From assembly GCA_046861385.1 (NCBI GenBank), contig JBHHTW010000019.1, positions 1 to 39,516 on the forward strand: DNA of 39,516 nt, in the 5' to 3' direction. The notes below the pieces were generated by a model. That model searched no databases. It saw only the letters and a program-made list of their open reading frames with translations, and was not told the DNA's origin. Positions 15,814 through 29,337 of this stretch are shown piece after piece (position 1 is the stretch's first letter; every line of letters begins with the position of its first letter). Both the position numbers and the translations under genes were made by a program. Origin of the DNA: Fidelibacterota bacterium. Its GTDB lineage: Bacteria > Fidelibacterota > Marinisomatia > Marinisomatales > TCS55.

Positions 15814-15865
15814 GTACTGCAGACATTCTTGTCTGCAGTTGTACAGGCAGGAATGTCTGTACTAC
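15814..15865. repeat. Head-to-head REP-like doublet with a GTAG foot
   Basis: ACTGCAGACA-TTCT-TGTCTGCAGT (15816-15839) followed by GTACAGGCA-GGAA-TGTCTGTAC-TAC. The right copy read on the - strand starts GTAG and matches the left copy at 19/25 positions. Confidence 0.7.
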
Positions 15866-15961
15866 AGAACGGACTTAATTAATGAAATTACTAATACTAA
15901 TATTTCCATTCGCTTGTCCTCTTTCAGTATTAAGTCTGTATTTCTTGGGATTTCCTCTATT

Positions 15962-18010
15962 TTGAATACATTGCGAACATATTTAAGAATCATTATTTTA
16001 TCTTACGGCAATTTAATTTTTGCCTCTCATCCATTCCCCGCACTACTTGTTTTAACAGCAACATTTTTCCACCCAGTCGTCGGTGTCATGGGATTAATCG
16101 GAAACATTGTTTCTAATCTGGTTGCAAAATGGATGCATGCCAATAATGATGTGTGGAAAACAGGTATTTATGGTGTAAGTGGTGTTCTAATCGGTTTGGC
16201 ATTGGGGATGTATGCAGAACCAAGTATAAGGTTGTGGGTATTCTTGATTGTAGGCGCTGCCTTTTCTGGGGTGATTTCTGTTATGCTGGGAAATATCTTT
16301 GCCCGGTTTGATCTTCCAATCATCAGCATTCCATTTATGCTAGTTATTTGGATTTTACTGTTGACAATTGGAATCGCAAAAGGTGACTCGACTTCGTTCC
16401 ATGCTATAACATTTTTAAGAAAGATTGACCTTTGGTTGTTCGATCAACTTCCTCTGGCAGTATTTGAATATATCAAGATGTTTGGAAGCATTATATTCCA
16501 GGAAAACCTTCTTTCCGGTTTGCTGGTTTTGATTGCTATTAGTATTTATAGCCGCATATCAATGTTGTACGGATTGTGGGGTGGATTTCTCGGGATGATC
16601 ATTTACAGTTTTATTCATGGTTCACTGGATGGATATCATGGATTAAACTTTGTTCTGATAGCATTAGCATTTGGCGGATTTTTTATTGTCCAGAATAAAC
16701 ATGCGTTTCTATTTGTTTCATTAGCTGTTGTCGCAGTTGGATTTGTCGATGAAGGAACTGTTAAACTACTTAAAGCAATATCTATGAATCTAAATGGCGA
16801 AATACCCTCATTGGTTTTTGCGTTTAACATTATAACAATTATTTTCCTCCTCCCGCTGAAATTATTACCAAGTTCACCGCAGACATTTCGTTTAAATGCT
16901 GTACCATTGTATTTGATTAAAAGCCCGGAAACTAACTTAAAATGGTATCGTCGATGGACCGGTATTAAAACCCGGCAGAGAACGATTTTGACATTTCCGT
17001 TTAATGGTGAATGGATCGTTTTACAGGGGAATAATGGTGAGTGGACCCATAAAGGAGATGGACGTTTCGCATGGGATTTTGTTGTTAAAGATGAGAAAGA
17101 TCTTCAAGCACAAGGGACGGGACTTTCTGTAACAGATTTTTATGCGTTTGGTTTACCGGTCTTGGCGCCTGCCCCCGGAACGATTGTTGCCGTTGAAAAT
17201 ATGGTGGTGGACAATCCGCCCGGTGAAGCAACAACTGAACGTAATTGGGGTAATTATGTTATTATCAATCATGGTTTTAGCGAATATTCAGAAATGAGTC
17301 ATTTTCGCCAAGGGAGCATTACAGTTCTCCCTGGGCAGGTCGTCCAAAGAGGTGATATCATTGGTTATTGTGGAAATTCCGGACGGTCGCCAGTACCACA
17401 CATTCATTTTCAACTGCAAAATACACCAATATTAGGATCGAGTACGATTCCATCAGTGTTTGCAGAAGGCTTAATAAGTGGCAGGATTTCTACGAATTTC
17501 ATTCCTGAGAAAAATGATAAAGTAGAAGCTTTATCGTTGAAAAGTGAGAATAAATTCAATCTCCTGGGAAAGGAAGGTTCACAATATACTTATAATGTTA
17601 AAAAAGGATGGATGCAATTCAAGGAAACGTTGCGATATGGTACAGATGCATATGGAACACCGGCCATTTTATCCGATAATAATTTATTGTGGTATTTAAT
17701 TGAAAAGCCTTCATTTATTGAGATTCGACCTGATTTTAAAACAATACCATCCAGATTAATTCTATCCGGATTTATTGATATTGTGGGCGACAGCCTTATT
17801 CTTCCAAAATTTCTTCAGGATGGTTTTGAATGGGATAATGGAAAAGTATATTTCAAAAATAATAATTGGTTTGTTAAGACAGAAGGAAAAGTGTTAATGG
17901 TAAATCAAGGGGATGGTATTGTTGATGTGACTATGAAATCAGATCCAAAATTTTATTTTAAATTAGAGAGTAAAAACAACCGGTCTAAAAATTTTAATAA
18001 TATTTTATAA
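15962..18010 (+). CDS. Urea-transporter-family membrane domain fused to an M23 metallopeptidase-like domain
   Basis: About ten TM segments with SYGNLIF / FGSIIFQ repeats, GIYG, LPIISIPF; then HKGDGRFAWDF, APAPG, WGNYVII, GNSGRSPVPHIH. The start is uncertain: the track's TTG 15839 lies in the REP, so TTG 15962 or 15971 is more plausible. Confidence 0.8.
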   Translation: MNTLRTYLRIIILSYGNLIFASHPFPALLVLTATFFHPVVGVMGLIGNIVSNLVAKWMHANNDVWKTGIYGVSGVLIGLALGMYAEPSIRLWVFLIVGAAFSGVISVMLGNIFARFDLPIISIPFMLVIWILLLTIGIAKGDSTSFHAITFLRKIDLWLFDQLPLAVFEYIKMFGSIIFQENLLSGLLVLIAISIYSRISMLYGLWGGFLGMIIYSFIHGSLDGYHGLNFVLIALAFGGFFIVQNKHAFLFVSLAVVAVGFVDEGTVKLLKAISMNLNGEIPSLVFAFNIITIIFLLPLKLLPSSPQTFRLNAVPLYLIKSPETNLKWYRRWTGIKTRQRTILTFPFNGEWIVLQGNNGEWTHKGDGRFAWDFVVKDEKDLQAQGTGLSVTDFYAFGLPVLAPAPGTIVAVENMVVDNPPGEATTERNWGNYVIINHGFSEYSEMSHFRQGSITVLPGQVVQRGDIIGYCGNSGRSPVPHIHFQLQNTPILGSSTIPSVFAEGLISGRISTNFIPEKNDKVEALSLKSENKFNLLGKEGSQYTYNVKKGWMQFKETLRYGTDAYGTPAILSDNNLLWYLIEKPSFIEIRPDFKTIPSRLILSGFIDIVGDSLILPKFLQDGFEWDNGKVYFKNNNWFVKTEGKVLMVNQGDGIVDVTMKSDPKFYFKLESKNNRSKNFNNIL

Positions 18011-18548: not shown

Positions 18549-19742
18549 ATGCAAATTATCTTCCGGTACATAATCTGTACCATACTTTCATCTCTGGCGT
18601 TTAGCCAGCAATTAGATATAACCTTGCTTAAGAAATTAGTGGTTGAAGGAAACCCAGATCTCTTGGCAAGTGAGAAACAGATTGATGTTAATGTTAGTCA
18701 GTTAGAGCAAACCAAGAGGTTGCCAAATCCTGTAATGGAGTTTGAATCTGGAAAGGGTGTTGAACCTGAAACTGTTGGTATGCTTTCTCAAACGATTCTC
18801 CTTGGAGGAAAAAGAAAACAGAGAATCAAATTAACCAGTCTTGAATTGAACAAGGCAAGATTAGAATACGAAGTTTTTAGAAGATCAATACTGACAAAAG
18901 CATTCAGTGAATTTGTTGTCATTCTATATTTACAGGAGAATAAAATACTCCAAAAAGACCGCATTGCTGTTGCAAGAGATCTACTGGATGCTGTGAGTAG
19001 AAAAGTAGAAGCCGGGAAACTATCACCAGCGGAAAAATCTCGTGCGCGGATACAACTAATTCAAGAGCAAATAAAATTACGATCAATTGAAAAATCATTG
19101 AAAAATTCGTGGAATTCAATTTCTGCACTATGGGGAAAGGGAGAAATATCATATAATTATGCCTCAGGCAGTTTATCACAGATGGGAGCATTTTCTACAT
19201 CTATTTCATTAGCCAATGTGCCGGAGGTCCAGATTTCCAAATTATCATTGGAAATACAACAAACGAAAGTTCTTTCCGAAAAAGCAAATGTGATACCAGA
19301 TATTGACTTGGGTGCGGGATTAAAACTGGGTGAAACTCCCGGTAATACCTATCAGGTTGGGTTATCAATTCCCCTTCCAATTTTCGACAGGAACAAAGGG
19401 AATATTAAAAGTGCGCTTTCTGAAGTGGAGAAAGCACAACTGGAATTAAAGGCAACAGAATTAGAGATAAAAACCAACGTCTCTAACCTTCAATCTGAGT
19501 TGGAAATATTGGTTTCAGAAATAGAAATCTTGAATAATGATATTATTCCTGAAGCTCAAAATGCATATACTACAATAACCGAAGGCTATTTGAACGGTCG
19601 ATTTACATATTTAGATGTTGTTGATTCACGGGAAATGTGGTTTCAATCCAGAGAACAATATTTAGGAGCATTGAAGGAATACCATCAAAACATTTTTGAA
19701 TTAGACCGGATAACGGGAAAATACCCAACATTCAATTTTTAG
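18549..19742 (+). CDS. czcC: CzcC-like TolC-family outer-membrane factor
   Basis: LPNP, LGGKRKQR, AGKLSPAE, LSIPLPIFDRNKGNI, GY..GRFTYLDVVD. Confidence 0.88.
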   Translation: MQIIFRYIICTILSSLAFSQQLDITLLKKLVVEGNPDLLASEKQIDVNVSQLEQTKRLPNPVMEFESGKGVEPETVGMLSQTILLGGKRKQRIKLTSLELNKARLEYEVFRRSILTKAFSEFVVILYLQENKILQKDRIAVARDLLDAVSRKVEAGKLSPAEKSRARIQLIQEQIKLRSIEKSLKNSWNSISALWGKGEISYNYASGSLSQMGAFSTSISLANVPEVQISKLSLEIQQTKVLSEKANVIPDIDLGAGLKLGETPGNTYQVGLSIPLPIFDRNKGNIKSALSEVEKAQLELKATELEIKTNVSNLQSELEILVSEIEILNNDIIPEAQNAYTTITEGYLNGRFTYLDVVDSREMWFQSREQYLGALKEYHQNIFELDRITGKYPTFNF

Positions 19743-19756
19743 GAGAAAAACGAATC

Positions 19757-20725
19757 ATGAAAAAAACAATTATCAGTACAGTAATTATTACTGCAATAAT
19801 AACATTCACTATAACCAAATATTTTATTTTACCCCAGAAAGACACCCATCATGATGAGGTGGGCCATAACGAGGAGCTGGATGATCATGAAGGCGAATCT
19901 GGATTAGAACTGGATTTAACACCGGAAGTACTAAAAGAATTTGGTATTGTCCTGGGAACTGTTTCGGATGGTGTTTTGGAAAGAATCGTTGAATTACCAG
20001 GTGAAATTCAGATAGACCCGGACCGTTTGGCACACATTACACCACGATTCGAAGGTGTAGTAAAGAAAGTTTTTAAACAAATTGGCGAAAGGGTGGAAAA
20101 GGATGAATTGCTGGCGATAATTGAAAGTAACGAAAGTCTTACTGCCTATGAAGTTCGATCGGAGATTGCAGGTACTGTGATCGAAATGCATCTCACGACG
20201 GGAGAGACAATCAGCGATTCTGACCATGGTTTTATTGTTGCTGATCTTAGTGAAGTATGGGCGAATTTAAGCGTTTACCAAAAAGATCTTCCCTTTATTC
20301 GAATGGGACAAAAAACCACGATTATTGTCAGTTCAGAATTACCGGAAGTTTCCGGAACTATCTCTTATATAAGTCCAATTCTGGATGAACACACACGAAC
20401 GGCTAATGCACGAGTCATTATTCAAAATGAAGATGGATATTTTCTTCCAGGACAGTTCGTAACTGGGCGGGTTGTTACAGAAGAAGAAACCATTTCATTA
20501 TTAGTTCCAAAAACTGCTCTCCAGACCATTAATAATCAGACAGTTGTATTTGTTAAGGATGAGCATGGTTTTGAACCACAACTTGTGCATGTGGGAAGGG
20601 CTAATGAAAAAAGTGTAGAAATCCTCTCAGGGCTTGACTCGGGGCAGAAGTACGTCTCAAAAGGAGGATTTACTCTTAAAGCTCAATTGGCAAAAAGTTC
20701 ATTCGGTGATGGACATAGTCATTAG
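19757..20725 (+). CDS. czcB: CzcB-like RND periplasmic adaptor
   Basis: N-terminal TM plus His/Asp-rich stretch, ADLSEVW, TRTA.AR, LPGQFV, C-terminal GHSH. Confidence 0.88.
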   Translation: MKKTIISTVIITAIITFTITKYFILPQKDTHHDEVGHNEELDDHEGESGLELDLTPEVLKEFGIVLGTVSDGVLERIVELPGEIQIDPDRLAHITPRFEGVVKKVFKQIGERVEKDELLAIIESNESLTAYEVRSEIAGTVIEMHLTTGETISDSDHGFIVADLSEVWANLSVYQKDLPFIRMGQKTTIIVSSELPEVSGTISYISPILDEHTRTANARVIIQNEDGYFLPGQFVTGRVVTEEETISLLVPKTALQTINNQTVVFVKDEHGFEPQLVHVGRANEKSVEILSGLDSGQKYVSKGGFTLKAQLAKSSFGDGHSH

Positions 20726-20788
20726 TGAATATTTAGATCCAAAATAAGGTTCTTGTACACATAAATTTTTAAAAAGGAAAAATTTACA

Positions 20789-23700
20789 ATGGAAAAATTA
20801 ATTCAATCCATTCTACGTAATCGTTTACTAATGGTGGCAGTTGCTGCACTGGTAATGGGAATGGGGATTTACAGTTATAAGCAATTGCCAATTGACGCAT
20901 TCCCAGATGTTTCACCAGTATTGGTACAAGTTTTTACGGAAACAGAAGGACTGGCTCCGGAAGAGGTAGAAAAATATGTAACCTACCCTGTGGAGGTCGC
21001 CATGAATGGACTTCCTGATCTAAAGAAAATTCGTTCTGTATCAAACTTTGGATTATCCGTAGTCAATATATATTTTCATGACGGTACTGATATATATTTC
21101 GCACGGCAACTGGTCAACGAAAGAATTCAGGAAGCACGGGAACAAATACCAGAGGGCTTTGGCGAACCGGTCATGGGTCCAATTTCAACGGGAATGGGTT
21201 TGATTCTTTTTTATTATCTCGAGGATGAAACGGGTGAATACACTCTTGAGGAATTGCGTACTATCCAAGATTGGTTAGTAAAATTTCATCTTCAAACAGT
21301 ACCGGGTGTTACTGAGGTCCTGGGGATTGGTGGATTCGAAAAACAGTTCCAGATTGTACTGGATCCATACGCTTTGTTGCGATACGACATTTCCGTCCAG
21401 GATGTGATTGAAAAAATAAAAGCAAATAATCTGAATGTTGGTGCTCAGTTTATTGAAAAAAATGCCGAGGAATTTATTGTTCGGTCTGTCGGGTTAGCTT
21501 CACATATTGAAGACATCGAGAATATTGTGATTAAATCTGATTCCGGAACGCCGATTTTTCTTAAACAACTAGCAGATGTAGAAATCGGAGGTGCTATCCG
21601 GAGGGGAATTCAAACGCGTAACGGTGTTGGAGAAGTGGTTGCTGGGATGGTCGTGAAATTGTATGGAACAAACTCTTCTACCGTGATAGGTCAGGTGGAA
21701 TCCAAAATGGAGGAAATAAATACAATTTTACCTGACGGGATTAAACTGATTCCATATTACGAACAAAAAACGTTAGTTGAAGCCTGTGTTAAGACGGTCA
21801 CAGACGCTTTGTTTGAAGGGATCATTCTTGTAATGATTATTCTGATGGTGTTTCTTGGTGCATTCAGACCCAGTATTGTTGTGGCTACAGCTATTCCATT
21901 TTCAGTCTTATTTGCAATTATCGGTATGAAATTATTTGGAATCTCTGCAAATCTCATGTCATTTGGTGGATTAGCAATCGCTATCGGAATGTTGGTAGAT
22001 GGAAGTGTCGTTATTGTTGAAAATGTCGATCGAATGTTAAGGTCTGCAAACAATCATGAACCACAGATTCATATTATTTCCCGGGCTTGTAGAGAAGTTA
22101 TTCGTCCAGTTTTATTTGCAATAATTATCATTATCCTTGTGTTTTTACCATTGTTTACTTTACAAGGCGTTGAAGGGAAAACCTTCAGACCGCTGGCATA
22201 TACTATCGCCCTGGCAATGTTTGGCTCCCTTATTTTTACAGTATTTCTTGCACCTGTTTTATCTTCATTTTTTATGAGAAAACCAAAAAGTACACCATCC
22301 GGTTCAGAGCATGAAGATGTTTGGATACTACGTCATATGCTAAAGTTATATCGCCCTGTTGTTACATTTTTTGTTAAGCGTAGACATATGGCTGTTTCGA
22401 TGGTTTTGCTTCTTGTTGCAATCGGGGTAATGGTATTTCCACGTCTTGGATCAGAATTTACACCAACTCTACAAGAAGGTACGATCGTCGTACGTTTGAC
22501 CATGGCACCATCAATTTCACTCAATGAAAGCAGGCGGATCACGATGATTGTGGAACGTAGATTGGTGAAAATTCCAGAAGTTACCGGTGTGGTTACACGA
22601 ATAGGACGCGGAGAAGTGGGAGCACATACAGATCCAATTAACAGTGCCGAAATGTATGTTCTATTGAAACCAAAAGAAGAATGGCGGATGGCGGAAAATC
22701 AGGTTGAACTTGAAGCAACGATTCGAAAAGAATTGGGTAATATTCCAGGTGTGCTAACTAATTTTACTCAACCCATTGCAATGACAGTCGACGAACTACT
22801 GGAAGGCATCAGAGCAGAACTGGCTATCAAGTTATTTGGTGATGACCTCGAAATCTTAAAAAGTAAAGCAGATGAAATCGCAGGTGTAATTCGTAAAATC
22901 CAGGGAGCGGAAGATGTGCAGGTGGATCAGGTCTCTGGTACACCACAGTTGTTAATAAAAGTTGACAGACACGCAATTGCCAGGTACGGAATTAATATTG
23001 CAGATGTTCAGGAAGTGATACGTGCTGCAGTTGGAGGAGAAACTGCCGGGCAGATATTTGAAGGTATTCGGCGGTTTGATATTCTTGTTCGTTTTACACC
23101 GGAATACCGAAACACACCTGATGCCATTGGAAAGATTCTCGTCCAATCTCCTGATGGAACAAACATTCCATTATCAGAACTGGCGGATATCGATGAAGTG
23201 GTTGGTCCCAGACAGATTACACGGGAAAATAACCAACGTTTTATTACTGTTCAGTGTAATGTAACCGGACGGGATATCAGTTCCTTTGTGACGGAAGGAC
23301 AACAGGCACTCGAATCTCAGGTTGTACTACCTACAGGATATCTCAGCACTTGGGGTGGACAATTCAAATTACAGCAAGAAGCAAACAAAAGGCTTTCAGT
23401 CGTGATTCCAATTACGTTGCTGATTATTTTCTTTTTACTATTTTCAAATTTCAACTCGTTAAAGAATTCGCTATTAATACTGTTGAATATTCCGTTAGCA
23501 CTTGTAGGTGGTGTTGTGAGTCTCTGGCTTAGTGGACAAAATATGTCGGTTCCTGCCTCAGTTGGATTTATAGCCCTTTTTGGTATCGCCTTATTAAATG
23601 GAATCGTCCTTGTCTCTTATTTAAACCAACTCTATCAAGAGGGCTTATCCATTGATGACGTTTCTATTAAAGGTGCTTGTTTAAGATTACGACCCGTATT

Positions 23701-23887
23701 GATGACAGCGCTCGCTGCCGGGCTTGGAATGATACCGCTGCTTTTTTCGCAAGGTATTGGCAGTGAAGTTCAGAGACCGCTGGCAACAGTAGTCATAGGT
23801 GGTTTGGTTACTTCCACAATTCTAACACTGCTGGTGATTCCGGCTTTGTATAAATGGTTTGCCATCGATGTCGATACAGAAAACTAA
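20789..23887 (+). CDS. czcA: CzcA-family divalent heavy-metal RND efflux permease
   Basis: LPIDAFPDVS, GMLVDGSVVIVEN, EGKTFRPLA, RLRPVLMTA, GSEVQRPLATVVIGG. Confidence 0.93.
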   Translation: MEKLIQSILRNRLLMVAVAALVMGMGIYSYKQLPIDAFPDVSPVLVQVFTETEGLAPEEVEKYVTYPVEVAMNGLPDLKKIRSVSNFGLSVVNIYFHDGTDIYFARQLVNERIQEAREQIPEGFGEPVMGPISTGMGLILFYYLEDETGEYTLEELRTIQDWLVKFHLQTVPGVTEVLGIGGFEKQFQIVLDPYALLRYDISVQDVIEKIKANNLNVGAQFIEKNAEEFIVRSVGLASHIEDIENIVIKSDSGTPIFLKQLADVEIGGAIRRGIQTRNGVGEVVAGMVVKLYGTNSSTVIGQVESKMEEINTILPDGIKLIPYYEQKTLVEACVKTVTDALFEGIILVMIILMVFLGAFRPSIVVATAIPFSVLFAIIGMKLFGISANLMSFGGLAIAIGMLVDGSVVIVENVDRMLRSANNHEPQIHIISRACREVIRPVLFAIIIIILVFLPLFTLQGVEGKTFRPLAYTIALAMFGSLIFTVFLAPVLSSFFMRKPKSTPSGSEHEDVWILRHMLKLYRPVVTFFVKRRHMAVSMVLLLVAIGVMVFPRLGSEFTPTLQEGTIVVRLTMAPSISLNESRRITMIVERRLVKIPEVTGVVTRIGRGEVGAHTDPINSAEMYVLLKPKEEWRMAENQVELEATIRKELGNIPGVLTNFTQPIAMTVDELLEGIRAELAIKLFGDDLEILKSKADEIAGVIRKIQGAEDVQVDQVSGTPQLLIKVDRHAIARYGINIADVQEVIRAAVGGETAGQIFEGIRRFDILVRFTPEYRNTPDAIGKILVQSPDGTNIPLSELADIDEVVGPRQITRENNQRFITVQCNVTGRDISSFVTEGQQALESQVVLPTGYLSTWGGQFKLQQEANKRLSVVIPITLLIIFFLLFSNFNSLKNSLLILLNIPLALVGGVVSLWLSGQNMSVPASVGFIALFGIALLNGIVLVSYLNQLYQEGLSIDDVSIKGACLRLRPVLMTALAAGLGMIPLLFSQGIGSEVQRPLATVVIGGLVTSTILTLLVIPALYKWFAIDVDTEN

Positions 23888-23902
23888 AAAAAGGAGAAGC
23901 TA

Positions 23903-24244
23903 ATGAAATTCATTCAAGCATATATCAAACCGCACAAATTGGTTGACGTTACATTATCTCTTCATAATGTAGATCGCTTAACAGGGATGAGTGTGATAGA
24001 AATAAAAGGATTTGGACGCGGGAAAGCTAAAAACTCACCTCATAGGATTAAAGATGAATTAATCGATTTCATTCACCATATAAAACTGGAAATATTCTGT
24101 CTGGACGAAATAGTTGATCAAATCATTGCTAAAATCCAAAAAGCCGCTCATACAGGATTAAGAGGGGATGGTAAAATCTATGTGACTGATGTTGATGAAG
24201 CTGTTCGTATCAGCACGGGCGAATATGGTAAAGAAGCTGTTTAA
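23903..24244 (+). CDS. PII-like protein associated with heavy-metal efflux
   Basis: IKPHKL, GMSV..IKGFGR, KLEI, AHTG..GDGKIYV, RISTGE. The T-loop lacks the YRG..Y uridylylation motif of GlnB/GlnK. Confidence 0.88.
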   Translation: MKFIQAYIKPHKLVDVTLSLHNVDRLTGMSVIEIKGFGRGKAKNSPHRIKDELIDFIHHIKLEIFCLDEIVDQIIAKIQKAAHTGLRGDGKIYVTDVDEAVRISTGEYGKEAV

Positions 24245-24315
24245 ATCTGTATTGAAATTCGTAACGACCATCCACCGACTGTTGGATAGAGGACAGGAGT
24301 TCAGTAATATTAATT

Positions 24316-25200
24316 ATGAATAATCATTCCCACGACAACCGTTCAGGTATGAAAAATATCAAAACTGCGTTCCTGTTAAATATCTCTTTTACTATTTTAG
24401 AGATTATCGGAGGAATTTTGACAAATAGTATTGCAATCCTATCTGATGCTCTTCATGACTTAGGGGATAGTCTTTCATTAGGATTGTCTTTATACCTGGA
24501 AAAAGTATCTCAGCGGAAACGTGATAATCGTTTTTCCTTCGGGTATCGTCGGTTTTCACTATTGGCGGCATTGATCAATAGTATTGTTTTGATCGTGGGG
24601 TCATTCATTATCATATCTGAAGCAATTCCCCGTGTGTTCAATCCTGAAACGGTGCATATCAAAGGTATGTTTGCATTGTCAATATTTGGAATACTAGTAA
24701 ATAGCTTGGCTGCCTGGCGTGTGAATAGTGGAAAATCCATGAATGAAAGGGTTATCACCTGGCATTTTTTGGAAGATGTATTTGGATGGATAGCTATTTT
24801 AATCATTAGTTTAGTCATGTTGAAATGGGACATTCCCATTTTAGACCCGATTCTTTCCATTCTGATTACTGTCTTTATCCTATGGAACGTCGCTAAACGA
24901 TTGAAAGAAACAGCAGTTATATTTTTACAGGCCATTCCCCCTGGAATTGAAGTTGATAAGCTTGAAGCGTGTATATCTGATCTGGACAAAGTCATTTCAA
25001 CACATGACACACATGTTTGGTCAATGGATGGGGAGTATACTGTGATGTCGACCCATATCGTGGTCTCTGATAGTTTACCGCATAGTGAATACCTGCACGT
25101 TAAAAACAGTGTTAAAGAATGCTGCAAAGATGTTGGTATACATCATATAACGGTGGAAATCGAACGGGGCGACGAAGATTGTCATTCGGCGGATTGTTGA
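24316..25200 (+). CDS. czcD: Cation diffusion facilitator (CzcD/ZitB-like Zn/Co/Cd exporter)
   Basis: SDALHDLGD, FSFGYRR, HFLED, HDTHVW, HITVE. Confidence 0.9.
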   Translation: MNNHSHDNRSGMKNIKTAFLLNISFTILEIIGGILTNSIAILSDALHDLGDSLSLGLSLYLEKVSQRKRDNRFSFGYRRFSLLAALINSIVLIVGSFIIISEAIPRVFNPETVHIKGMFALSIFGILVNSLAAWRVNSGKSMNERVITWHFLEDVFGWIAILIISLVMLKWDIPILDPILSILITVFILWNVAKRLKETAVIFLQAIPPGIEVDKLEACISDLDKVISTHDTHVWSMDGEYTVMSTHIVVSDSLPHSEYLHVKNSVKECCKDVGIHHITVEIERGDEDCHSADC

Positions 25201-25408: not shown

Positions 25409-26206
25409 ATGAAACCACGAAATATCATTGTCCTGGTTAATCTGCTTCTTTTTGCAGCAGAGCCTGGTTTTATGCAGACCATATCGAAAACGACATACAC
25501 TTTATTTCTAGGCGAAGAAAAGGTCTGGGTAGATATATACGAGCGAACCGGGTCAGACATTACGCTTCTGAACTTACATGACAATGAGAATACCTCTGTT
25601 GAAGCGGGTCTGGCATTCATAGAAAAGTACGGCGGTAGGCTGATCGAACTACGGCATGGCCGTGGCCGGGAAGTGGTGGTACGGCTGGATGGTGTGCTAA
25701 ATCGATTTGATCCGAACCGAATGTTTACCGATGTGGGGTTGCGGAAGTCCCTGGAATATTTTCAAAACAACAATGACGAAGTTTTTGCCATCGCTGCCGC
25801 TTTCAGGGACAGCGTGATACGCTTGTTTGATGTCCGAAAAGGGATGCTCGTAATTGCTCTTCACAACAATACTCCAAGCAAAATGACAATCAAAGATTTT
25901 AGGGTGGGCGAATGGTATGGAGATGACACCGAGGAGGTTTCCATTAATCCTCAAGAAGATCCCGATAATTTTTTCGTTGTCACTCAAGCTGAATTATATA
26001 GTGCACTTTATTCATCAGGTTACAATGTGGCCCTCAAGGCAACATATCCGCCTGATCGGGGAATGCTAATCGATTACTGTGAGAATAAGGGTGCGTTGTA
26101 CGTCACCATTGAGACCGAGCATGGTAAACGGAAGAAACAAGAGGAAATGCTGGAAACAATTTGGAAGATTCTGAAGGAAAAGAGTATGGGAGTCTCATTT
26201 GATTAG
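25409..26206 (+). CDS. Secreted protein with M14/succinylglutamate-desuccinylase-like zinc hydrolase motifs
   Basis: Signal-like N-terminus; LHDNE (HxxE), DPNR, ALHNN and YVTIE occur in the order typical of the M14 fold. Confidence 0.6.
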   Translation: MKPRNIIVLVNLLLFAAEPGFMQTISKTTYTLFLGEEKVWVDIYERTGSDITLLNLHDNENTSVEAGLAFIEKYGGRLIELRHGRGREVVVRLDGVLNRFDPNRMFTDVGLRKSLEYFQNNNDEVFAIAAAFRDSVIRLFDVRKGMLVIALHNNTPSKMTIKDFRVGEWYGDDTEEVSINPQEDPDNFFVVTQAELYSALYSSGYNVALKATYPPDRGMLIDYCENKGALYVTIETEHGKRKKQEEMLETIWKILKEKSMGVSFD

Positions 26207-26807
26207 GAATAAAGTATATTGGTCCGGTCCAATTTTATTGGTGCTAATCCTCATAATCGTACTTTGGTTTGCTCCATTGGAAAGAACCCTCGGCAGCACG
26301 ATAAAATACGTGTATCTTCACGTAGCATTGACTTGGTGCGGTATGGTTGGAATAGCTCTAATGGCCGCTATGGGAGTTGGAACCTTATTCCGTAGGAGCG
26401 ATATTTTGGATTTTTATCGAAAAATAATTGGGTGGGTGACTATTTTTGCTTGGGGCATTAGTATTTTAATCAGCGCATTCGCAGCAAAGATTGCATGGGG
26501 TTCAATTTCTTGGTCGGAACCCCTTATGAGTGTTGCACTGATGATTTTGATTTCTTTACTAATTGTACAAATATATGAACATATAATACGATCACATGTT
26601 GTCAGAGGGTTGTTAAGTATTGCTCCCTCCGGATTCCTAATTGTGTTGGCGGGTAAAGTTACTCGGGTTCTTCATCCGCTTGATCCGATTCACACTTCTA
26701 ATTCCATGTCAATAAAACTAACTTTCAATATCGTATTCATAATCTGTCTGTTATTAGCTGCCTGGGTAGTATGGATGGCTGAACAGAGGAGAAAATCAAA
26801 TGATTAA
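26199..26807 (+). CDS. Divergent CcmC/CcsA-like heme-handling membrane protein
   Basis: Six TM segments; YLHV, AKIAWGSISWSEP (degenerate WWD motif), LHP. TTG start overlapping the upstream gene. Confidence 0.6.
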   Translation: MIRNKVYWSGPILLVLILIIVLWFAPLERTLGSTIKYVYLHVALTWCGMVGIALMAAMGVGTLFRRSDILDFYRKIIGWVTIFAWGISILISAFAAKIAWGSISWSEPLMSVALMILISLLIVQIYEHIIRSHVVRGLLSIAPSGFLIVLAGKVTRVLHPLDPIHTSNSMSIKLTFNIVFIICLLLAAWVVWMAEQRRKSND

Positions 26808-26911
26808 TTTGTATCTTGGAAGGTTCTGAATCTCGAATATCTGATAAATAGTATTTCTATTCTTTTAGTCAACATTTTAAATGTGGAACAATTTGCTTAT
26901 TGGTAATTATA

Positions 26912-26935
26912 CTATTTGAACATATATTCAAATAG
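26912..26935. promoter_or_regulatory. ArsR/SmtB/CadC-type operator
   Basis: CTATTTGAA-CATATA-TTCAAATAG is a perfect 9-6-9 inverted repeat with a TGAACA..TTCA core. It overlaps a -10-like TATACT (26908-26913) and ends 15 nt before the merT-like start. Confidence 0.8.
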
Positions 26936-26950
26936 ACATGGGAGTTTAAT

Positions 26951-27535
26951 ATGGATAAAACAATATTTTCAACAATGGGCGCAGCATTTTTAGCATCGAT
27001 TTGTTGTATTGGCCCAATACTAATGCTGGTACTTGGTTCAACCTCTATAGGATTATTCGCTATTTTTGAACCAATTCGACCCATTTTCGCCGTTCTTTCC
27101 ATCCTGATATTAGTGTTTGCTTACTTTAAACTATTTAGAAAAGAAAGAGCAGCCTGTTGTAATACTGAAGATTCAAGACAATCTTTGCGAAAACAAAAAC
27201 GTATTCTCATGGGAATTACTCCTTTTGTTTTTGTTTTGTTGGCTTTTCCATATTTAATAGGAAATACACATTTAAGCAATTCCAATGACCATACAGGAAT
27301 AAAATCGGAGTGGTTAGTCGAAGGGATGACTTGCAGCGGATGTGCTGCAGGGATGGAAGGGTCATTAGCCGCTACCGATGGAATGAACTTTTGTAAAGTA
27401 AGTTATGAAAAGGGAACCATGCTTTGCTATACAGATGACACAAAGCTACCGATAGACAATATTCCGGGATTAGTAGCCAGTAACGGTTATAAGGCGATAC
27501 CTAATACAGAAAAATCAACAATAAGTGGCGGATGA
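26951..27535 (+). CDS. MerT-like transporter fused to a heavy-metal-associated (MerP/HMA) domain
   Basis: ASICCIGP, EPIRP, AACC loop, LAFPY, then GMTCSGC. Confidence 0.88.
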   Translation: MDKTIFSTMGAAFLASICCIGPILMLVLGSTSIGLFAIFEPIRPIFAVLSILILVFAYFKLFRKERAACCNTEDSRQSLRKQKRILMGITPFVFVLLAFPYLIGNTHLSNSNDHTGIKSEWLVEGMTCSGCAAGMEGSLAATDGMNFCKVSYEKGTMLCYTDDTKLPIDNIPGLVASNGYKAIPNTEKSTISGG

Positions 27536-28008
27536 TCGTTATGGCAAGTTGTTGTTCTGTACCTCAAGTAGAAAAAATATCAACCGATACGAAATGTCCT
27601 ACGTGTGATCAGGAAGGAAAGCAAGTGGAGTTGCTCACAATCAGGTCTATGACCCGTAGAGATTTCCCTCATTATGGTGAACTTACAAAAGGATTTCTCT
27701 GTTTAAATCCCGATGATTCAACCGTCTATTATTTTTCGAATTTAGGTTTCACCATCAGTCAAAGCGATGTTGTAACAGATATTGGTTTTAAAACCAATTC
27801 AAATACGAAAACTATCTGTTATTGTTTTCGTCACACAAAACAGGAAATTATAGACGATTATTTAATAAATAATGAATCAAATATAGAAATGGATGTTCGT
27901 AAGAAAGTAAAAGAAAAATTGTGTACATGTGAGGTGAGTAATCCAAAGGGGAAGTGTTGTTTAGGAGATATTCGAACTGTGATAAAGGGAGTGGAAGAGC
28001 ATGGCTAA
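27532..28008 (+). CDS. CopZ-N-terminal-like Zn/[2Fe-2S] (BFD-like) metallochaperone
   Basis: CPTC..GK.V, VYY, ICYCF, CTCEVSNPKGKCC; ATGA overlap with merT (alternative start 27541). Confidence 0.82.
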   Translation: MIVMASCCSVPQVEKISTDTKCPTCDQEGKQVELLTIRSMTRRDFPHYGELTKGFLCLNPDDSTVYYFSNLGFTISQSDVVTDIGFKTNSNTKTICYCFRHTKQEIIDDYLINNESNIEMDVRKKVKEKLCTCEVSNPKGKCCLGDIRTVIKGVEEHG

Positions 28009-28381
28009 TAGTGTGAAACGATCGTGTGTAAGATCATACGTGGATCATGATAAAATACAAGAATTGCAAATGGATTTAGTTCTGAAAGATTATGATAAAT
28101 TAGGAGAAACACTCGCTATCTTAAGTAATCCAACGCGTATAAAAATCATAGATTGTTTATCTAAATCAGATGAATTATGTGTTTGTGATCTAGCTGATAT
28201 CTTAGAAATGGACGTATCGGCTATTTCTCATCAATTACGTAAACTCAAAGATCGAGGTTTCGTAAATAAACGACGTGATGGATTAACAATATATTATCGA
28301 TTGTCATTAGATGAAAACTGTCGAAAAGCCTGTGATTTTATCGAGTCACTATTCATTGGTGACCTTGAAACACAAAAATGA
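28001..28381 (+). CDS. ArsR/SmtB-family metalloregulator, CadC-like
   Basis: N-terminal Cys, LSNPTRIKI, ELCVCDLA, SAISHQLRKL, RRDG..IYY. Confidence 0.92.
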   Translation: MANSVKRSCVRSYVDHDKIQELQMDLVLKDYDKLGETLAILSNPTRIKIIDCLSKSDELCVCDLADILEMDVSAISHQLRKLKDRGFVNKRRDGLTIYYRLSLDENCRKACDFIESLFIGDLETQK

Positions 28382-29337
28382 ATACTGTGAAGAAAAAAGC
28401 GTATTTGATTTTATTAATCAGTTTATTTCCTATTTTCCTTTTTGGTCAATGACCTCTTTGAAGTAATCCTTCACTCCCGGTCGGGAGCACGACAGAAGGT
28501 ATTGGTGTAGTCGAGGATTCCTGGATGACGGGAACAGCTGTTTCCTTTACTAATTTTTCACCCATTCATGATATTAATGATGGGTCAGAAGAGGGCCATG
28601 TCGGAGAAATAGACTTACTAGTGACAAACTTTTACGGCTTATACGGGCTCACAAATAATTTAAATCTGTCAATAAGTTTTCCATACAAATATTGGAGACA
28701 ATTTGAGGTTGAACACGAGGATGCCCATCACCGGAATGACAAGCAAAAGGGAATTGGAGATATGACCCTTGGGTTAAGAAAAATAGTAATTAATGAATCA
28801 TTTGGACCCGGTCAGCGCTTGTTCTTTGACGGGTCGCTAACATTGCCCACGGGGAAACATTATGAATTAAATCCTTTCGGTACAGACGCAGATTCCGTTA
28901 ATCACTCCCATTTTGCGTTAGGAACAGGACAAGTCTCCTATTCTCTCGGGTCAGAATGGTGGAGGAGGTCTGAATTCCCGTTTATAATCGGAGTTTCTTC
29001 TATATTCAAGCAGGCTGTTACGGAGAGTAATGTTGGTTTTAAGCCTGGTTCAACCGTCAGTTTAACTTTTCATGCAATTCGGCAAGCGTCAATTATCAAA
29101 TCCGTTTTTCCATACATGCAATTGAAATATCGTCGTGAATGGCCGGATGAGTGGGAAGGTAAAGCAGCCCCGAATAGCGGTGCCGCATTTTTGGATTTTT
29201 CCGGACAACTGATTTATGAGGTTAGTGAGCAAAGTTCACTTGTTTTTACAATTGGTTTTCCACTTTGGCAGGCTGTTGAAGGAAGTCAACTCACCGGGGT
29301 AAACTACGCTTTAAGTTTTCGATTTAAATCTATTTGA
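28378..29337 (+). CDS. Putative secreted/outer-membrane beta-barrel selenoprotein with a UxxU motif (319 aa if both TGAs are read as Sec)
   Basis: ATG 28378 overlaps the CadC stop (ATGA). It reads MNTVKKKAYLILLISLFPIFLFG-Q-TGA-P-L-TGA-SNPSLPVGSTTEGIGVVEDSW, in frame with ORF 28525-29337. A SECIS-like hairpin follows. The body has GIGD.TLG and LTLPTG motifs of MetA-pathway-like 'transporter' barrels and His-rich loops. Confidence 0.8.
28468..28499 (+). promoter_or_regulatory. Candidate bacterial SECIS element
   Basis: Upper stem CTCCC/GGGAG closes a GGTC loop (28479-28482); lower stem CCTTC/GAAGG. The loop starts 17 nt after the second TGA and 26 nt after the first. Confidence 0.72.

What the first reader, a model, noticed from the sequence alone, without database searches (positions are those of the whole stretch)
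28378..29337. Hidden double-selenocysteine (UxxU) outer-membrane protein ending a CadC/MerT operon
Seen: the ORF track starts this gene at 28525, but the same frame extends to ATG 28378, which overlaps the CadC-like stop (ATGA). That extension encodes a classic signal peptide (MNTVKKKAYLILLISLFPIFLFG) followed by Q-TGA-Pro-Leu-TGA. The TGAs are at 28450 and 28459, giving exact CxxC spacing, and no other stop occurs before 29335. Without readthrough, the barrel would have no export signal. Many other genes here end in TGA, so TGA is not globally reassigned. Established: Sec replaces Cys in redox or metal-binding CxxC motifs, and selenols bind Hg(II) and other soft metals very tightly. Inference: the mature protein begins Q-U-P-L-U, followed by a His-loop-rich beta-barrel. 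It could be a selenol-based metal-capture channel feeding the MerT-HMA and CopZ-like proteins. I do not recognise an exported barrel with UxxU as a characterised selenoprotein family, but I cannot search to confirm novelty.
Basis: partly seen in the sequence, partly recalled or inferred. Interest (0 to 1): 0.93.

Follow-up and report, generated by a model that had tools for sequence, protein, structure and literature searches.

The report
Two-selenocysteine outer-membrane barrel in metal operon
The two in-frame TGA codons are almost certainly selenocysteine codons, so this gene encodes an exported outer-membrane barrel whose mature end reads Q-Sec-P-L-Sec; it belongs to a widespread, routinely truncated and uncatalogued selenoprotein family found in metal- and mercury-handling gene clusters.

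Summary

- **Machinery:** the genome has tRNA-Sec, SelA, SelB and a Sec-containing SelD. TGA still ends 284 of 978 long ORFs.
- **Conservation:** 130 listed homologue matches across the phylum span the motif. 125 carry both in-frame TGAs, 4 carry one, and 1 carries none.
- **Cys/Sec exchange:** CPLU, UALC and CxxC forms occupy exactly these positions.
- **SECIS:** a 5-6 bp hairpin sits 17 nt after UGA2 with invariant spacing, and its pairs covary at synonymous sites.
- **Not an assembly error:** four per-run assemblies show no difference at the TGAs.

The protein is a 12-stranded barrel closest to FapF and COG4313 channels (Z about 24). A roughly 25-residue N-terminal arm starts Q-U-P-L-U.

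It is the last gene of an operon with an operator-like palindrome, a MerT-HMA fusion, a CopZ-N-like protein and an ArsR with an ELCVCDL motif. Cys homologues in Bacteroidota sit beside a secreted HMA-thioredoxin fusion in 21 of 22 loci, and with MerTP, ArsR and sometimes MerA.

A role in soft-metal capture or hand-off at the outer membrane is inferred, not shown. The metal is unknown, and this genome has no MerA. I found no Pfam or NCBIfam model and no entry in a 2026 catalogue of 119 selenoprotein families.

The parts
26900..26928 (+). Promoter-like site (TTGGTA, 17 nt spacer, TATATT) upstream of the operon
   Evidence: This is a consensus match only: 7 such sites were found in the region against a mean of 11.5 in shuffles, so it is weak on its own.
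26912..26935 (.). 12+12 nt palindrome, the candidate ArsR operator. It ends 15 nt before the merTP start and overlaps the -10 hexamer.
   Evidence: arms 92% complementary, 0 nt apart; for the sequence. The operator role is inferred.
26951..27535 (+). MerT-like membrane protein fused to a C-terminal HMA (MerP-like) domain. Cys pairs sit in TM1 and in the cytoplasmic loop, and the HMA domain carries GMTCSGC.
   Evidence: PF02411 58.4 bits, PF00403 25.5 bits; NF033556 MerTP 113.6 bits, below its 180 cut-off.
27532..28008 (+). CopZ-N-terminal-type Cys-rich putative Fe-S/zinc metallochaperone. It starts with a CC pair.
   Evidence: PF18423 36.6 bits; NF047645 100 bits, equal to its cut-off.
28001..28381 (+). 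ArsR/SmtB-family repressor with an ELCVCDL motif and an N-terminal Cys. Its stop overlaps the barrel start (ATGA).
   Evidence: PF01022 62.6 bits; translation; overlap seen.
28378..29337 (+). Full selenoprotein gene: 319 residues plus stop, with Sec at residues 25 and 28.
28378..28446 (+). Signal peptide (residues 1-23). Predicted cleavage is G23|Q24.
   Evidence: It has a Lys-rich n-region and a hydrophobic core. AF2 models a helix at 3-21. Every full-length homologue has one. The cleavage site is inferred; no signal-peptide predictor was available.
28450..28452 (+). UGA1 = Sec25. It is TGC (Cys) in 3 of the 48 loci checked.
28459..28461 (+). UGA2 = Sec28. It is TGT (Cys) in 1 of the 48 loci checked.
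28474..28487 (+). SECIS hairpin: a 5 bp stem (28474-28478 with 28483-28487) and a GGUC loop (28479-28482). It lies within the codons for L-P-V-G-S. The loop starts 17 nt after UGA2 and 26 nt after UGA1.
   Evidence: Over 48 sequences, 94.4% of cells are paired against 79.7% in shuffles (0 of 500 reach it). The covariation score is 0.48 against 0.18.
28447..28521 (+). Mature N-terminal arm (Q24-S48), which carries Q-U-P-L-U-S-N-P-x-L-P-V-G-S-x-T-E-G.
   Evidence: invariant columns; pLDDT 44-55 for residues 21-40; alignments to FapF and Pput2725 begin at model residues 26-36.
28522..29334 (+). 12-stranded beta-barrel (residues 49-319).
   Evidence: strand list; Foldseek E about 1e-11; Z 24.7 to 5o65, 24.4 to 4rl8.
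28714..28740 (+). Conserved H-E-D-x-H-H-R-N-[DE] motif in the loop between strands 3 and 4. This loop is inferred to be extracellular.
   Evidence: HHR-E is invariant in the Cys-form alignments and nearly invariant in A1. The topology is inferred from the strand order.
28903..28911 (+). Conserved H-x-H of the long loop between strands 5 and 6.

Best explanation
Window 28378-29337 is one gene for an exported outer-membrane selenoprotein. Both internal UGA codons are read as selenocysteine by SelB and tRNA-Sec. A single SECIS hairpin (28474-28487) directs this, embedded in the codons for L-P-V-G-S. After signal-peptide cleavage the protein begins Q-U-P-L-U on a flexible arm of about 25 residues, which leads into a 12-stranded barrel of the FapF/COG4313 type. 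All of this is shown by sequence, comparative and fold evidence.

The function is inferred. The gene is the last in an ArsR-repressed operon (operator, merT-HMA fusion, CopZ-N-like protein, arsR, barrel). It most likely acts as the outer-membrane station of a relay for a thiophilic metal such as Hg(II), Cu(I) or Cd(II). In this model the diselenolate arm lies in or below the barrel lumen, as the N-terminal segment of COG4313 channels does. It captures the metal and passes it by ligand exchange to the periplasmic HMA domain tethered to MerT. The metal then moves through the MerT Cys pairs to the cytoplasmic Cys-rich CopZ-N-like protein. My confidence is about 0.95 in the selenoprotein and barrel identity, and about 0.5 in the metal-relay function.
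For: **Sec machinery.** The genome has tRNA-Sec at 62.6 bits (cut-off 47), and ARAGORN calls it SeC with anticodon tca. SelA scores 443 bits and the SelB wing domain 58.5 bits. SelD scores 403.6 bits and has one in-frame TGA.

**Conserved TGAs.** 125 of 130 motif-spanning matches in 401 phylum genomes have two TGAs. At the DNA level, 44 of 48 loci read UxxU, 3 read CxxU and 1 reads UxxC.

**Cys homologues.** CxxC followed by [SGQT]-N-x-x-L occurs in 7 of the 35 proteins I fetched from the profile search and in 22 Bacteroidota loci.

**Coding constraint between the TGAs.** The third positions of the Pro and Leu codons vary among all four bases, while the first two positions are almost fixed (Pro invariant; Leu mostly CTN, TTG or TTA in a few).

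**SECIS.** Spacing is invariant. The loop is GGUC in 44 of 48 loci and AGUU in 4. Pairs covary at synonymous sites: columns 27-36 read CG 20, UA 12, GC 7, UG 5, GU 2, and columns 25-38 read CG 34, UA 9. Controls with the pairing slid by one or more columns score 0.126 or less, against 0.48.

**Annotated start.** Met50, the annotated start, is not conserved.

**Fold.**

**Gene context.** Among 49 Marinimicrobia loci with only 1.5-2.5 kb flanks, ArsR occurs in 19, the CopZ-N-like gene in 19 and MerTP in 12. Among the 22 Bacteroidota Cys-form loci, a secreted HMA-thioredoxin fusion lies directly upstream in 21. MerTP occurs in 12, ArsR in 10 and MerA in 4; two of the MerA genes were scored, at 514 and 504 bits, above the 454 cut-off. 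One homologue, P0114, carries a C-terminal HMA domain. Locus L020 has a MerA-like gene next to a UxxU barrel.

**Operator.** A palindrome sits at 26912-26935.

**Phylum distribution.** The two families with no or few SelA matches also lack the barrel: f26 has SelA in 0 of 33 and the barrel in 1 of 33 (a weak match), and f3 has the barrel in 0 of 37.
Against: There is no direct evidence of selenium incorporation or of expression.

The 26 nt spacing of UGA1 from the loop is longer than the fdhF-type spacing (recalled from memory). Decoding of UGA1 therefore rests on comparative evidence alone.

Four barrel-positive genomes have no SelA match: G219 (92% complete), G251 (86%), G358 (67%) and G363 (67%). 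Two more, G361 and G376, have only weak matches. All of these are incomplete genomes assembled from metagenomes.

On function, this genome has no MerA over the cut-off (best 392.6 bits against 454). It has no HgcA match and no HMA-thioredoxin fusion, so the classical mercury end-point and the partner seen in Bacteroidota are both missing here.

The conserved His and acidic loops suggest borderline metals rather than Hg. The arm is modelled at low confidence (pLDDT 44-55). COG4313 channels are thought to carry hydrophobic molecules (PMC4493636, passages read).
Confidence: 0.8

Rival explanations
1. The selenocysteines are real, but the UxxU arm is a redox centre rather than a metal carrier. It would form a diselenide/diselenol couple that exchanges electrons with periplasmic thioredoxin-type partners, for example to reduce a surface substrate or a metal ion.
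For: CxxC/UxxC motifs in catalogued selenoproteins are mostly redox motifs (PMC13188914, section 7 read). Cys-form homologues are translationally coupled to a secreted fusion with a WCGPC thioredoxin domain in 21 of 22 loci.
Against: That same partner also carries an HMA metal-binding domain. The remaining context consists of metal genes: MerTP, ArsR, MerA, CsoR-like and CueO-like genes. This genome has no such thioredoxin fusion. The two roles are not exclusive, since a reductase may simply keep a metal-binding pair reduced.
Confidence: 0.2
2. The selenocysteines are real, but the barrel works like other COG4313/FapF-type proteins, as a channel for hydrophobic or polypeptide substrates. Its presence in a metal operon would then be incidental or regulatory.
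For: The best fold matches are FapF (Z 24.7) and Pput2725 (Z 24.4). The nearest ESM Atlas clusters carry PF13557 in 15% and 56% of members.
Against: No Pfam match reaches E 0.01. The Cys/Sec pair and the His motifs are conserved only in this family. Metal-gene synteny recurs in two phyla. P0114 carries a fused HMA domain.
Confidence: 0.07
3. The TGAs are true stops. A 24-codon upstream ORF ends at 28450, and the barrel is translated from ATG 28525, or the gene is a pseudogene.
For: This is how every gene caller reads it. All 20 database homologues are 232-271 aa long and cover at most 84% of the query.
Against: A product starting at Met50 has no export signal. Met50 is not conserved. The stretch between UGA2 and Met50 is the most conserved part of the protein. 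Both TGAs are kept in 125 of 130 matches, and Cys replaces them elsewhere. A covarying hairpin follows them.
Confidence: 0.02
4. TGA is read here as another residue (Trp, Cys or Gly), through code reassignment or near-cognate read-through.
For: Seven fetched database proteins show W at both positions.
Against: Two of those seven were looked up and come from contigs of 617 and 750 bp. Near-identical genomic loci carry TGA at those codons, for example L054 against P0084. TGA ends 29% of long ORFs in this genome. The complete Sec machinery and a SECIS hairpin are present.
Confidence: 0.01

Closest known systems
UxxU metal-binding (seleno)protein, NCBIfam NF041115 (HMA-type 'putative mercuric reductase' selenoprotein listed in PMC13188914 Table 1)
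   Same: It has two selenocysteines in a UxxU motif that replaces a metal-binding CxxC, and it sits in a soft-metal context.
   Different: NF041115 is a small soluble HMA-fold protein. This protein is a 12-stranded outer-membrane barrel with the motif at the mature N-terminus. It has no NCBIfam hit at E 1 or better.
COG4313 channel Pput2725 (PDB 4RL8) and FapF (PDB 5O65); Pfam PF13557
   Same: All are 12-stranded barrels with a segment before strand 1. The matches are Z 24.4 (rmsd 2.8, 254 residues aligned) and Z 24.7 (rmsd 2.7, 254 aligned). In Pput2725 about 14 N-terminal residues fold into the lumen (PMC4493636, passages read).
   Different: Sequence identity is only 10-14%. There is no Pfam hit at E 0.01 or better and no PDB sequence hit at E 10 or better. 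Those proteins have no Cys/Sec pair and no His motifs, and their substrates are hydrophobic molecules or amyloid subunits.
MerP/MerT uptake step of mer operons, including the ArsR-regulated mer operons of Bacteroidetes (PMC3466566, passages read)
   Same: The neighbouring genes match: a MerT-HMA fusion and an ArsR-type regulator. Cys-form relatives lie beside MerA in 4 of 22 loci. The chemistry is a paired thiol or selenol ligand hand-off.
   Different: No outer-membrane component appears among the mer functions tabulated in that paper, whose figure legend says broken-line arrows depict diffusion. This genome has no MerA over the cut-off.
E. coli fdhF-type bacterial SECIS (loop letters and spacing recalled from memory, not taken from any call)
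   Same: Both are short stem-loops just 3' of the UGA with a G-U-containing apical loop. Here the loop is GGUC, 17 nt after UGA2.
   Different: Here one hairpin apparently serves two UGA codons 9 nt apart. UGA1 is 26 nt from the loop. Four loci have an AGUU loop instead.
Other envelope selenoproteins in the 2026 catalogue: the GSU2204/MtrB-PioB family barrel (NF041027) and the TonB-dependent receptor of FCYXU type (NF049945)
   Same: They are outer-membrane beta-barrel proteins that contain Sec.
   Different: They belong to different barrel families, have one Sec and use different motifs. The NCBIfam scan gave no match to either model.

Membership tests
Bacterial selenoprotein (Sec-UGA recoding) | In-frame UGA conserved among orthologues | tested here: met
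   125 of 130 motif-spanning matches have two TGAs and 4 have one. 48 loci were checked on the DNA.
Bacterial selenoprotein (Sec-UGA recoding) | Cys at the aligned position in homologues | tested here: met
   CPLU in 3 loci, UALC in 1 locus, and CxxC in 7 fetched proteins and 22 Bacteroidota loci.
Bacterial selenoprotein (Sec-UGA recoding) | SECIS stem-loop immediately downstream of the UGA | tested here: met
   Hairpin at 28474-28487. 94.4% of cells are paired, and the covariation score is 0.48 against 0.18 in shuffles (0 of 500 reach it).
Bacterial selenoprotein (Sec-UGA recoding) | Genome encodes selA, selB, selC and selD | tested here: met
Bacterial selenoprotein (Sec-UGA recoding) | Selenium present in the protein | not testable with these tools
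   This needs 75Se labelling or mass spectrometry.
COG4313 / Pfam PF13557 outer-membrane channels | 12-stranded barrel fold | tested here: met
   AF2 strand list. Z 24.4 to 4rl8, clearly above autotransporter beta-domains at Z about 18.5.
COG4313 / Pfam PF13557 outer-membrane channels | Match to the family HMM above the gathering score | tested here: not met
   No Pfam family at E 0.01 or better. Distant relatives P0063 and P0070 reach only 18.3 and 19.5 bits, below the 22-bit cut-off.
COG4313 / Pfam PF13557 outer-membrane channels | N-terminal segment inserted in the lumen | tested here: inconclusive
   Structural alignments start at model residues 26-36, but the arm has pLDDT 44-55.
NF041115 UxxU metal-binding (seleno)protein | HMA fold and HMM match | tested here: not met
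   No NCBIfam hit at E 1 or better for the barrel. The fold is a barrel.
mer (mercury resistance) operon | MerA mercuric reductase present | tested here: not met
   The best match in this genome scores 392.6 bits against a 454.45 cut-off (genome 97.85% complete). MerA is present next to Cys-form relatives in 4 of 22 Bacteroidota loci.
mer (mercury resistance) operon | MerT/MerP transport proteins | tested here: inconclusive
   Pfam MerT (58.4 bits) and HMA (25.5 bits) are above their cut-offs. The NCBIfam MerTP equivalog scores 113.6 bits, below its 180 cut-off.
ArsR/SmtB metal-sensing repressors | HTH_5 domain and a thiolate metal site | tested here: met
   PF01022 at 62.6 bits. ELCVCDL and an N-terminal Cys are visible in the translation. 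That this motif is the metal site is recalled from memory, not tested.

The most novel reading that the evidence does not exclude
This barrel is the missing outer-membrane step of a mer-like import-for-detoxification relay. A diselenolate (or dithiolate) arm inside a 12-stranded channel would take Hg(II), Cu(I) or Cd(II) at the cell surface and hand it to periplasmic HMA domains. In addition, a single SECIS hairpin recodes two UGA codons 9 nt apart. The naturally occurring CxxU and UxxC variants would show that each codon can use the hairpin on its own.
Probability: 0.4. Interest if true: 0.85.

Novelty: new variant of a known kind. Interest (0 to 1): 0.75.

Why it matters
**Annotation.** Gene callers truncate this protein everywhere. 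All 20 database homologues lack the signal peptide and the active motif, and some records carry a false Trp at the Sec positions. A whole family of envelope selenoproteins is therefore invisible to annotation.

**Catalogues.** It adds a two-Sec outer-membrane family to the known selenoproteome. It is not in the 119-family table of PMC13188914, nor in Pfam or NCBIfam release 20.

**Mercury and soft-metal biology.** Mercury and soft-metal systems have no described outer-membrane component. This family is a concrete candidate, testable in cultivable Bacteroidota that carry the Cys form.

**Recoding.** It is a clean natural case for asking how one SECIS serves two nearby UGA codons.

Tried and rejected
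- **Complex prediction.** I ran the Bacteroidota Cys-form barrel (A6) with its HMA-thioredoxin neighbour (A7). The tool gave no answer (score 0.00 against a mark of 0.32), so this says nothing either way.
- **Window barrel not sent to that tool.** It would need TGA read as a residue, and the tool states it takes code 11 only.
- **RNA evidence.** No RNA run was listed as holding the stretch.
- **Rfam.** Nothing reached a gathering score in 28300-28700. The best hit was MicA at 27.2 bits against 41, which I take as chance.
- **Fold energy.** The free energy of the 66-nt stretch is not unusual (z 0.44). The case for the hairpin rests on conservation and covariation.
- **Outer helix.** A helix pairing 28468-28472 with 28495-28499 is only 73.8% paired across 29 sequences, so I do not claim it.
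- **PDB sequence search.** The profile search with A1 gave 0 hits at E 10 or better.
- **The search for related loci.** The 7-sequence Cys alignment was rejected for lack of a conserved stretch. I repeated it with 3 sequences.
- **HgcA.** No match in this genome.
- **Sec variants of neighbours.** The neighbouring MerTP and CopZ-N genes in Marinimicrobia loci all read CC; none has Sec.
- **Other read-through ORFs.** A scan of the window for ORFs joined through an in-frame TGA, with at least 100 aa on each side, found none.
- **Literature.** Searches for 'selenoprotein'+'Marinimicrobia', 'UxxU', 'outer membrane'+'beta-barrel'+'SECIS', 'MetA-pathway' and 'SAR406' found no description of this family.
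Full report
**The observation**

ATG 28378 overlaps the stop of the upstream ArsR gene (ATGA). The frame runs to TGA 29335-29337 and is interrupted only by TGA 28450-28452 and TGA 28459-28461. Read with TGA as U, it gives a typical signal peptide (MNTVKKKAYLILLISLFPIFLFG) followed by Q-U-P-L-U. The table-11 ORF list starts the gene at ATG 28525, giving a 270-aa product with no export signal. TGA is an ordinary stop in this genome: of 978 ORFs of at least 300 aa, 549 end in TAA, 284 in TGA and 145 in TAG (GC content 38.9%).

**Sec machinery**

The window is contig C5 of a 2.43 Mb assembly that is 97.85% complete.
- tRNA-Sec scores 62.6 bits (cut-off 47), and ARAGORN calls it SeC with anticodon tca.
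- SelA scores 443 bits.
- A SelB winged-helix domain scores 58.5 bits within a 628-aa frame, beside selA.
- SelD scores 403.6 bits and itself contains one in-frame TGA.

**Comparative evidence for Sec**

A word-indexed protein search found 20 homologues. All are 232-271 aa long, all cover at most 84% of the query, and all are named hypothetical proteins of Marinimicrobia or Fidelibacterota. Every one is therefore truncated at the same place as here.

A six-frame search of 401 genomes of the phylum found matches in 144. Of the 150 matches listed (15 more were not listed), 130 span query residues 25-28. Of these, 125 contain two in-frame TGAs (3 also contain a TAA), 4 contain one, and 1 contains none.

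I read the DNA of 50 loci.
- Of the 30 best loci, 29 show a signal peptide followed by Q-[U/C]-P-L-U-[SG]-[NS]-x-[ST]-L-[PS]-V-G-S: 27 read UPLU and 2 read CPLU with TGC. The remaining locus, L021, is a copy split between frames.
- Of 20 further loci from a more distant subfamily (25-34% identity), 19 show the motif: 17 UxxU, 1 UALC (TGT) and 1 CPLU. L050 is a more distant CC-type relative.

In total the 48 motif-bearing loci read 44 UxxU, 3 CxxU and 1 UxxC. Between the two TGAs, the third positions of the Pro and Leu codons vary among all four bases while the first two positions are almost fixed (Pro invariant; Leu mostly CTN, TTG or TTA in a few). That is the signature of translation through this stretch. 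Met50, the annotated start, is not conserved.

**Relatives outside the phylum**

A profile of 22 full-length sequences, searched against 1.84 billion representative proteins, gave 498 hits at E 0.001 or better, of which 72 were at 1e-10 or better. Of the 150 listed, I fetched the 35 whose match reached or nearly reached the N-terminus.
- 7 have CxxC followed by [SGQT]-N-x-x-L immediately after a signal peptide (for example CPACSNP and CAACSNPNLP).
- 17 have other Cys clusters there (CC, CxC, CDxCGC).
- 1 has a single Cys.
- 3 are truncated forms that start at the Leu of L-P-V-G, read as Met.
- 7 read W-x-x-W.

The two I looked up come from contigs of 617 and 750 bp. P0084 is almost identical to the translation of locus L054, whose DNA has TGA at both positions. 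These are TGAs read as Trp by a gene caller.

The CPAC forms belong to Bacteroidota: 22 loci in Saprospiraceae, Flavobacteriales, Cyclobacteriaceae and other groups.

**The SECIS element**

Directly after the second TGA lies a hairpin, with stems at 28474-28478 and 28483-28487 and a GGUC loop at 28479-28482. It is encoded by the codons for L-P-V-G-S. In all 48 loci the loop starts 17 nt after UGA2 and 26 nt after UGA1. The loop is GGUC in 44 loci and AGUU in 4.

On the 48-sequence alignment, a 6-bp helix is 94.4% paired against 79.7% in column shuffles (0 of 500 shuffles reach it). The covariation score is 0.48 against 0.18 (0 of 500), and every control with the pairing slid out of register scores 0.126 or less. 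The covarying pairs fall on synonymous third positions: the Leu and Gly codons read CG 20, UA 12, GC 7, UG 5 and GU 2, and another pair reads CG 34 and UA 9. This is selection on the RNA, not on the peptide.

Consistent with that, L-P-V-G-S is invariant in 26 of the 27 UPLU forms of the close subfamily, with L-S-V-G-S in the 2 CPLU loci and L-P-V-G-x in the distant subfamily. In Cys forms only N-x-x-L is kept.

The free energy of the 66-nt stretch alone is unremarkable (z 0.44), and Rfam has no matching family. The CxxU and UxxC variants keep the hairpin at the same position, which suggests each UGA can use it alone. The resemblance to the fdhF SECIS in loop and spacing is recalled from memory, not tested.

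**Other checks**

Contigs of four DNA runs from one hydrothermal-vent sample, possibly the source of the assembly, cover the TGAs at word depth 17-45 with no difference there.

SelA is over its cut-off in 316 of the 401 phylum genomes. The families poor in SelA also lack the barrel: f26 has SelA in 0 of 33 and the barrel in 1 of 33 (a weak match), and f3 has the barrel in 0 of 37. Against this, four barrel-positive genomes show no SelA match (G219, G251, G358, G363; 67-92% complete), and two show only weak matches (G361, G376). The full cross-tabulation could not be made, because 54 genomes without a SelA match were not listed.

**What the protein is**

AlphaFold2 on the 22-sequence alignment gives a confident barrel (mean pLDDT 83.4, pTM 0.78). 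It has 12 strands between residues 49 and 317, and a low-confidence arm (pLDDT 44-55 for residues 21-40).
- Foldseek places FapF and the COG4313 channel Pput2725 on top (E about 1e-11).
- VIA-align gives Z 24.7 (5o65, rmsd 2.7, 254 residues aligned) and Z 24.4 (4rl8, rmsd 2.8, 254 aligned). Autotransporter beta-domains score clearly lower, at Z about 18.5.
- By sequence it belongs to no library family: no Pfam hit at E 0.01 or better, no NCBIfam hit at E 1 or better and no PDB sequence hit at E 10 or better.
- The nearest ESM Atlas clusters carry PF13557 in 15% and 56% of members.

In Pput2725 about 14 N-terminal residues fold into the lumen from the periplasmic side (PMC4493636, passages read). 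Here the structural alignments begin at model residues 26-36, so the arm may do the same, but the model is not confident there.

From the strand order, the short turns face the periplasm and the long loops face outward. The conserved H-E-D-x-H-H-R-N-[DE] motif (residues 113-121) and H-x-H motif (176-178) then lie in outward loops 2 and 3. This topology is inferred. Both motifs are also invariant in the Cys-form alignments.

**The operon and its neighbourhood**

Upstream genes overlap or abut one another.
- 26951-27535: a MerT-like protein with a C-terminal HMA domain.
- 27532-28008: a CopZ-N-terminal-type Cys-rich protein (NF047645 at 100 bits, equal to its cut-off).
- 28001-28381: an ArsR-family repressor with ELCVCDL.

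A 12+12 nt palindrome at 26912-26935 ends 15 nt before the merT start and overlaps the -10 hexamer of a promoter-like site. It is the obvious operator candidate, by inference.

Further upstream lie an outer-membrane efflux protein, a CusB/HlyD-type fusion protein, an RND pump, a P-II protein and a CDF transporter. The region is a metal-resistance island.

The linkage recurs. In 49 Marinimicrobia loci with only 1.5-2.5 kb flanks, ArsR is found in 19, the CopZ-N-like gene in 19 and MerTP in 12. An independent clustering gave 16, 14 and 18.

In the 22 Bacteroidota Cys-form loci:
- a secreted HMA-thioredoxin fusion (GMxCxxC plus WCGPC) lies directly upstream in 21, often with its stop overlapping the barrel start;
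- MerTP occurs in 12, ArsR in 10, a CsoR-like gene in 9 and a GDCCVxC (seleno)protein-family gene in 8;
- MerA occurs in 4, and the two I scored reach 514 and 504 bits against a 454 cut-off.

One homologue, P0114, has an HMA domain fused to the barrel's C-terminus, which should be periplasmic. One Marinimicrobia-phylum locus, L020, has a MerA-like gene next to a UxxU barrel.

Bacteroidetes mer operons are known to use ArsR-type regulators. The mer functions tabulated in that review include no outer-membrane protein (PMC3466566, passages read).

**The most likely mechanism (inferred)**

The arm's two selenolates form a soft-metal site at the periplasmic mouth of, or inside, the channel. From MerT topology, with a positively charged loop between TM2 and TM3, the HMA domain of the MerT fusion is periplasmic. 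The arm could therefore pass metal to it by ligand exchange. The metal would then move on through the MerT Cys pairs to the cytoplasmic Cys-rich CopZ-N-like protein, and ArsR would sense the metal.

The metal is not defined.
- MerA in some relatives points to Hg.
- CsoR-like genes and a CueO-like gene in others point to Cu.
- The His and acidic loops, the ELCVCDL sensor and the neighbouring CDF and RND genes fit Cd, Zn or Cu.

Three things count against a classical mercury system here. This genome has no MerA over its cut-off (392.6 against 454 bits), no HgcA match and no HMA-thioredoxin fusion. A purely redox role for the UxxU pair is the main rival, and it is not exclusive of metal binding.

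**Comparison with what is known, and novelty**

Two-Sec UxxU metal-binding proteins (NF041115), Sec-containing MerT, and two outer-membrane barrel selenoproteins (the MtrB/PioB type and an FCYXU-type TonB-dependent receptor) are all catalogued (PMC13188914, section 7 parts 1-2 read, 119 families). A FapF/COG4313-like barrel with an N-terminal UxxU is not in that table, in Pfam or in NCBIfam release 20. My literature searches found no description of it.

Earlier AI notes from this scan describe the same family in other genomes. I treated them as leads and re-derived the main points here. I therefore rate this a new variant of a known kind: a new selenoprotein family and a candidate new outer-membrane component of soft-metal systems. 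It is not a new principle.

Noticed in passing
window 18549-25200: A metal-efflux island lies directly upstream. It holds an outer-membrane efflux protein (18549-19742), a CusB/HlyD-type fusion protein (19757-20725), an RND pump (20789-23887), a small P-II family protein (23903-24244) and a CDF transporter (24316-25200).
   Followed up: partly
window 25409-26807: Two overlapping genes match no family. One is a 265-aa protein with a signal-peptide-like start (25409-26206). The other is a 202-aa multi-pass membrane protein (26199-26807) whose only hint is a weak CcmC match (E 0.027). They lie between the CDF gene and the operon.
   Followed up: partly
window 15839-18010: A 723-aa ORF combines a urea-transporter domain (PF03253, 157 bits) with an M23 peptidase domain (56 bits). 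This is an unusual fusion.
   Followed up: no
G000:C97:10536-11462 (L011): The SelD of this genome has one in-frame TGA, so it is probably a selenoprotein itself.
   Followed up: no
G000:C93:7594-8946 (L064): A 712-aa open frame has a MerA-like pyridine-nucleotide disulfide oxidoreductase region scoring 392.6 bits, below the MerA cut-off. I did not examine its extra roughly 250 residues.
   Followed up: no
L021 (G169:C48:96074-97020): The UxxU barrel homologue here is split into two matches in different frames (residues 1-98 and 99-319). This is either a frameshifted pseudogene or an assembly error.
   Followed up: no
Proteins P0062, P0084, P0107, P0116, P0122, P0128, P0162: These public protein records read Trp at both Sec positions. 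Where looked up, they come from very short contigs. They appear to be TGA translated as Trp by gene callers, which could mislead homology-based tests for Sec.
   Followed up: partly
L071-L092 (Bacteroidota loci), about 700 nt upstream of the barrel: A secreted HMA-thioredoxin fusion gene ends at or overlaps the Cys-form barrel start in 21 of 22 loci. Marinimicrobia loci and this genome lack it. Why the Sec forms here do without it is unexplained.
   Followed up: partly
window 28528, 28758, 28785: Contigs of the four runs differ from the window at these positions: 28528 A>G in three runs, and 28758 A>C and 28785 A>T in all four. This is probably strain variation within the sample.
   Followed up: no
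L051, L057, L061, L062: Four distant-subfamily loci have an AGUU loop in place of GGUC in the SECIS hairpin. L051, the UALC variant, also has one A-C mismatch in the stem.
   Followed up: partly
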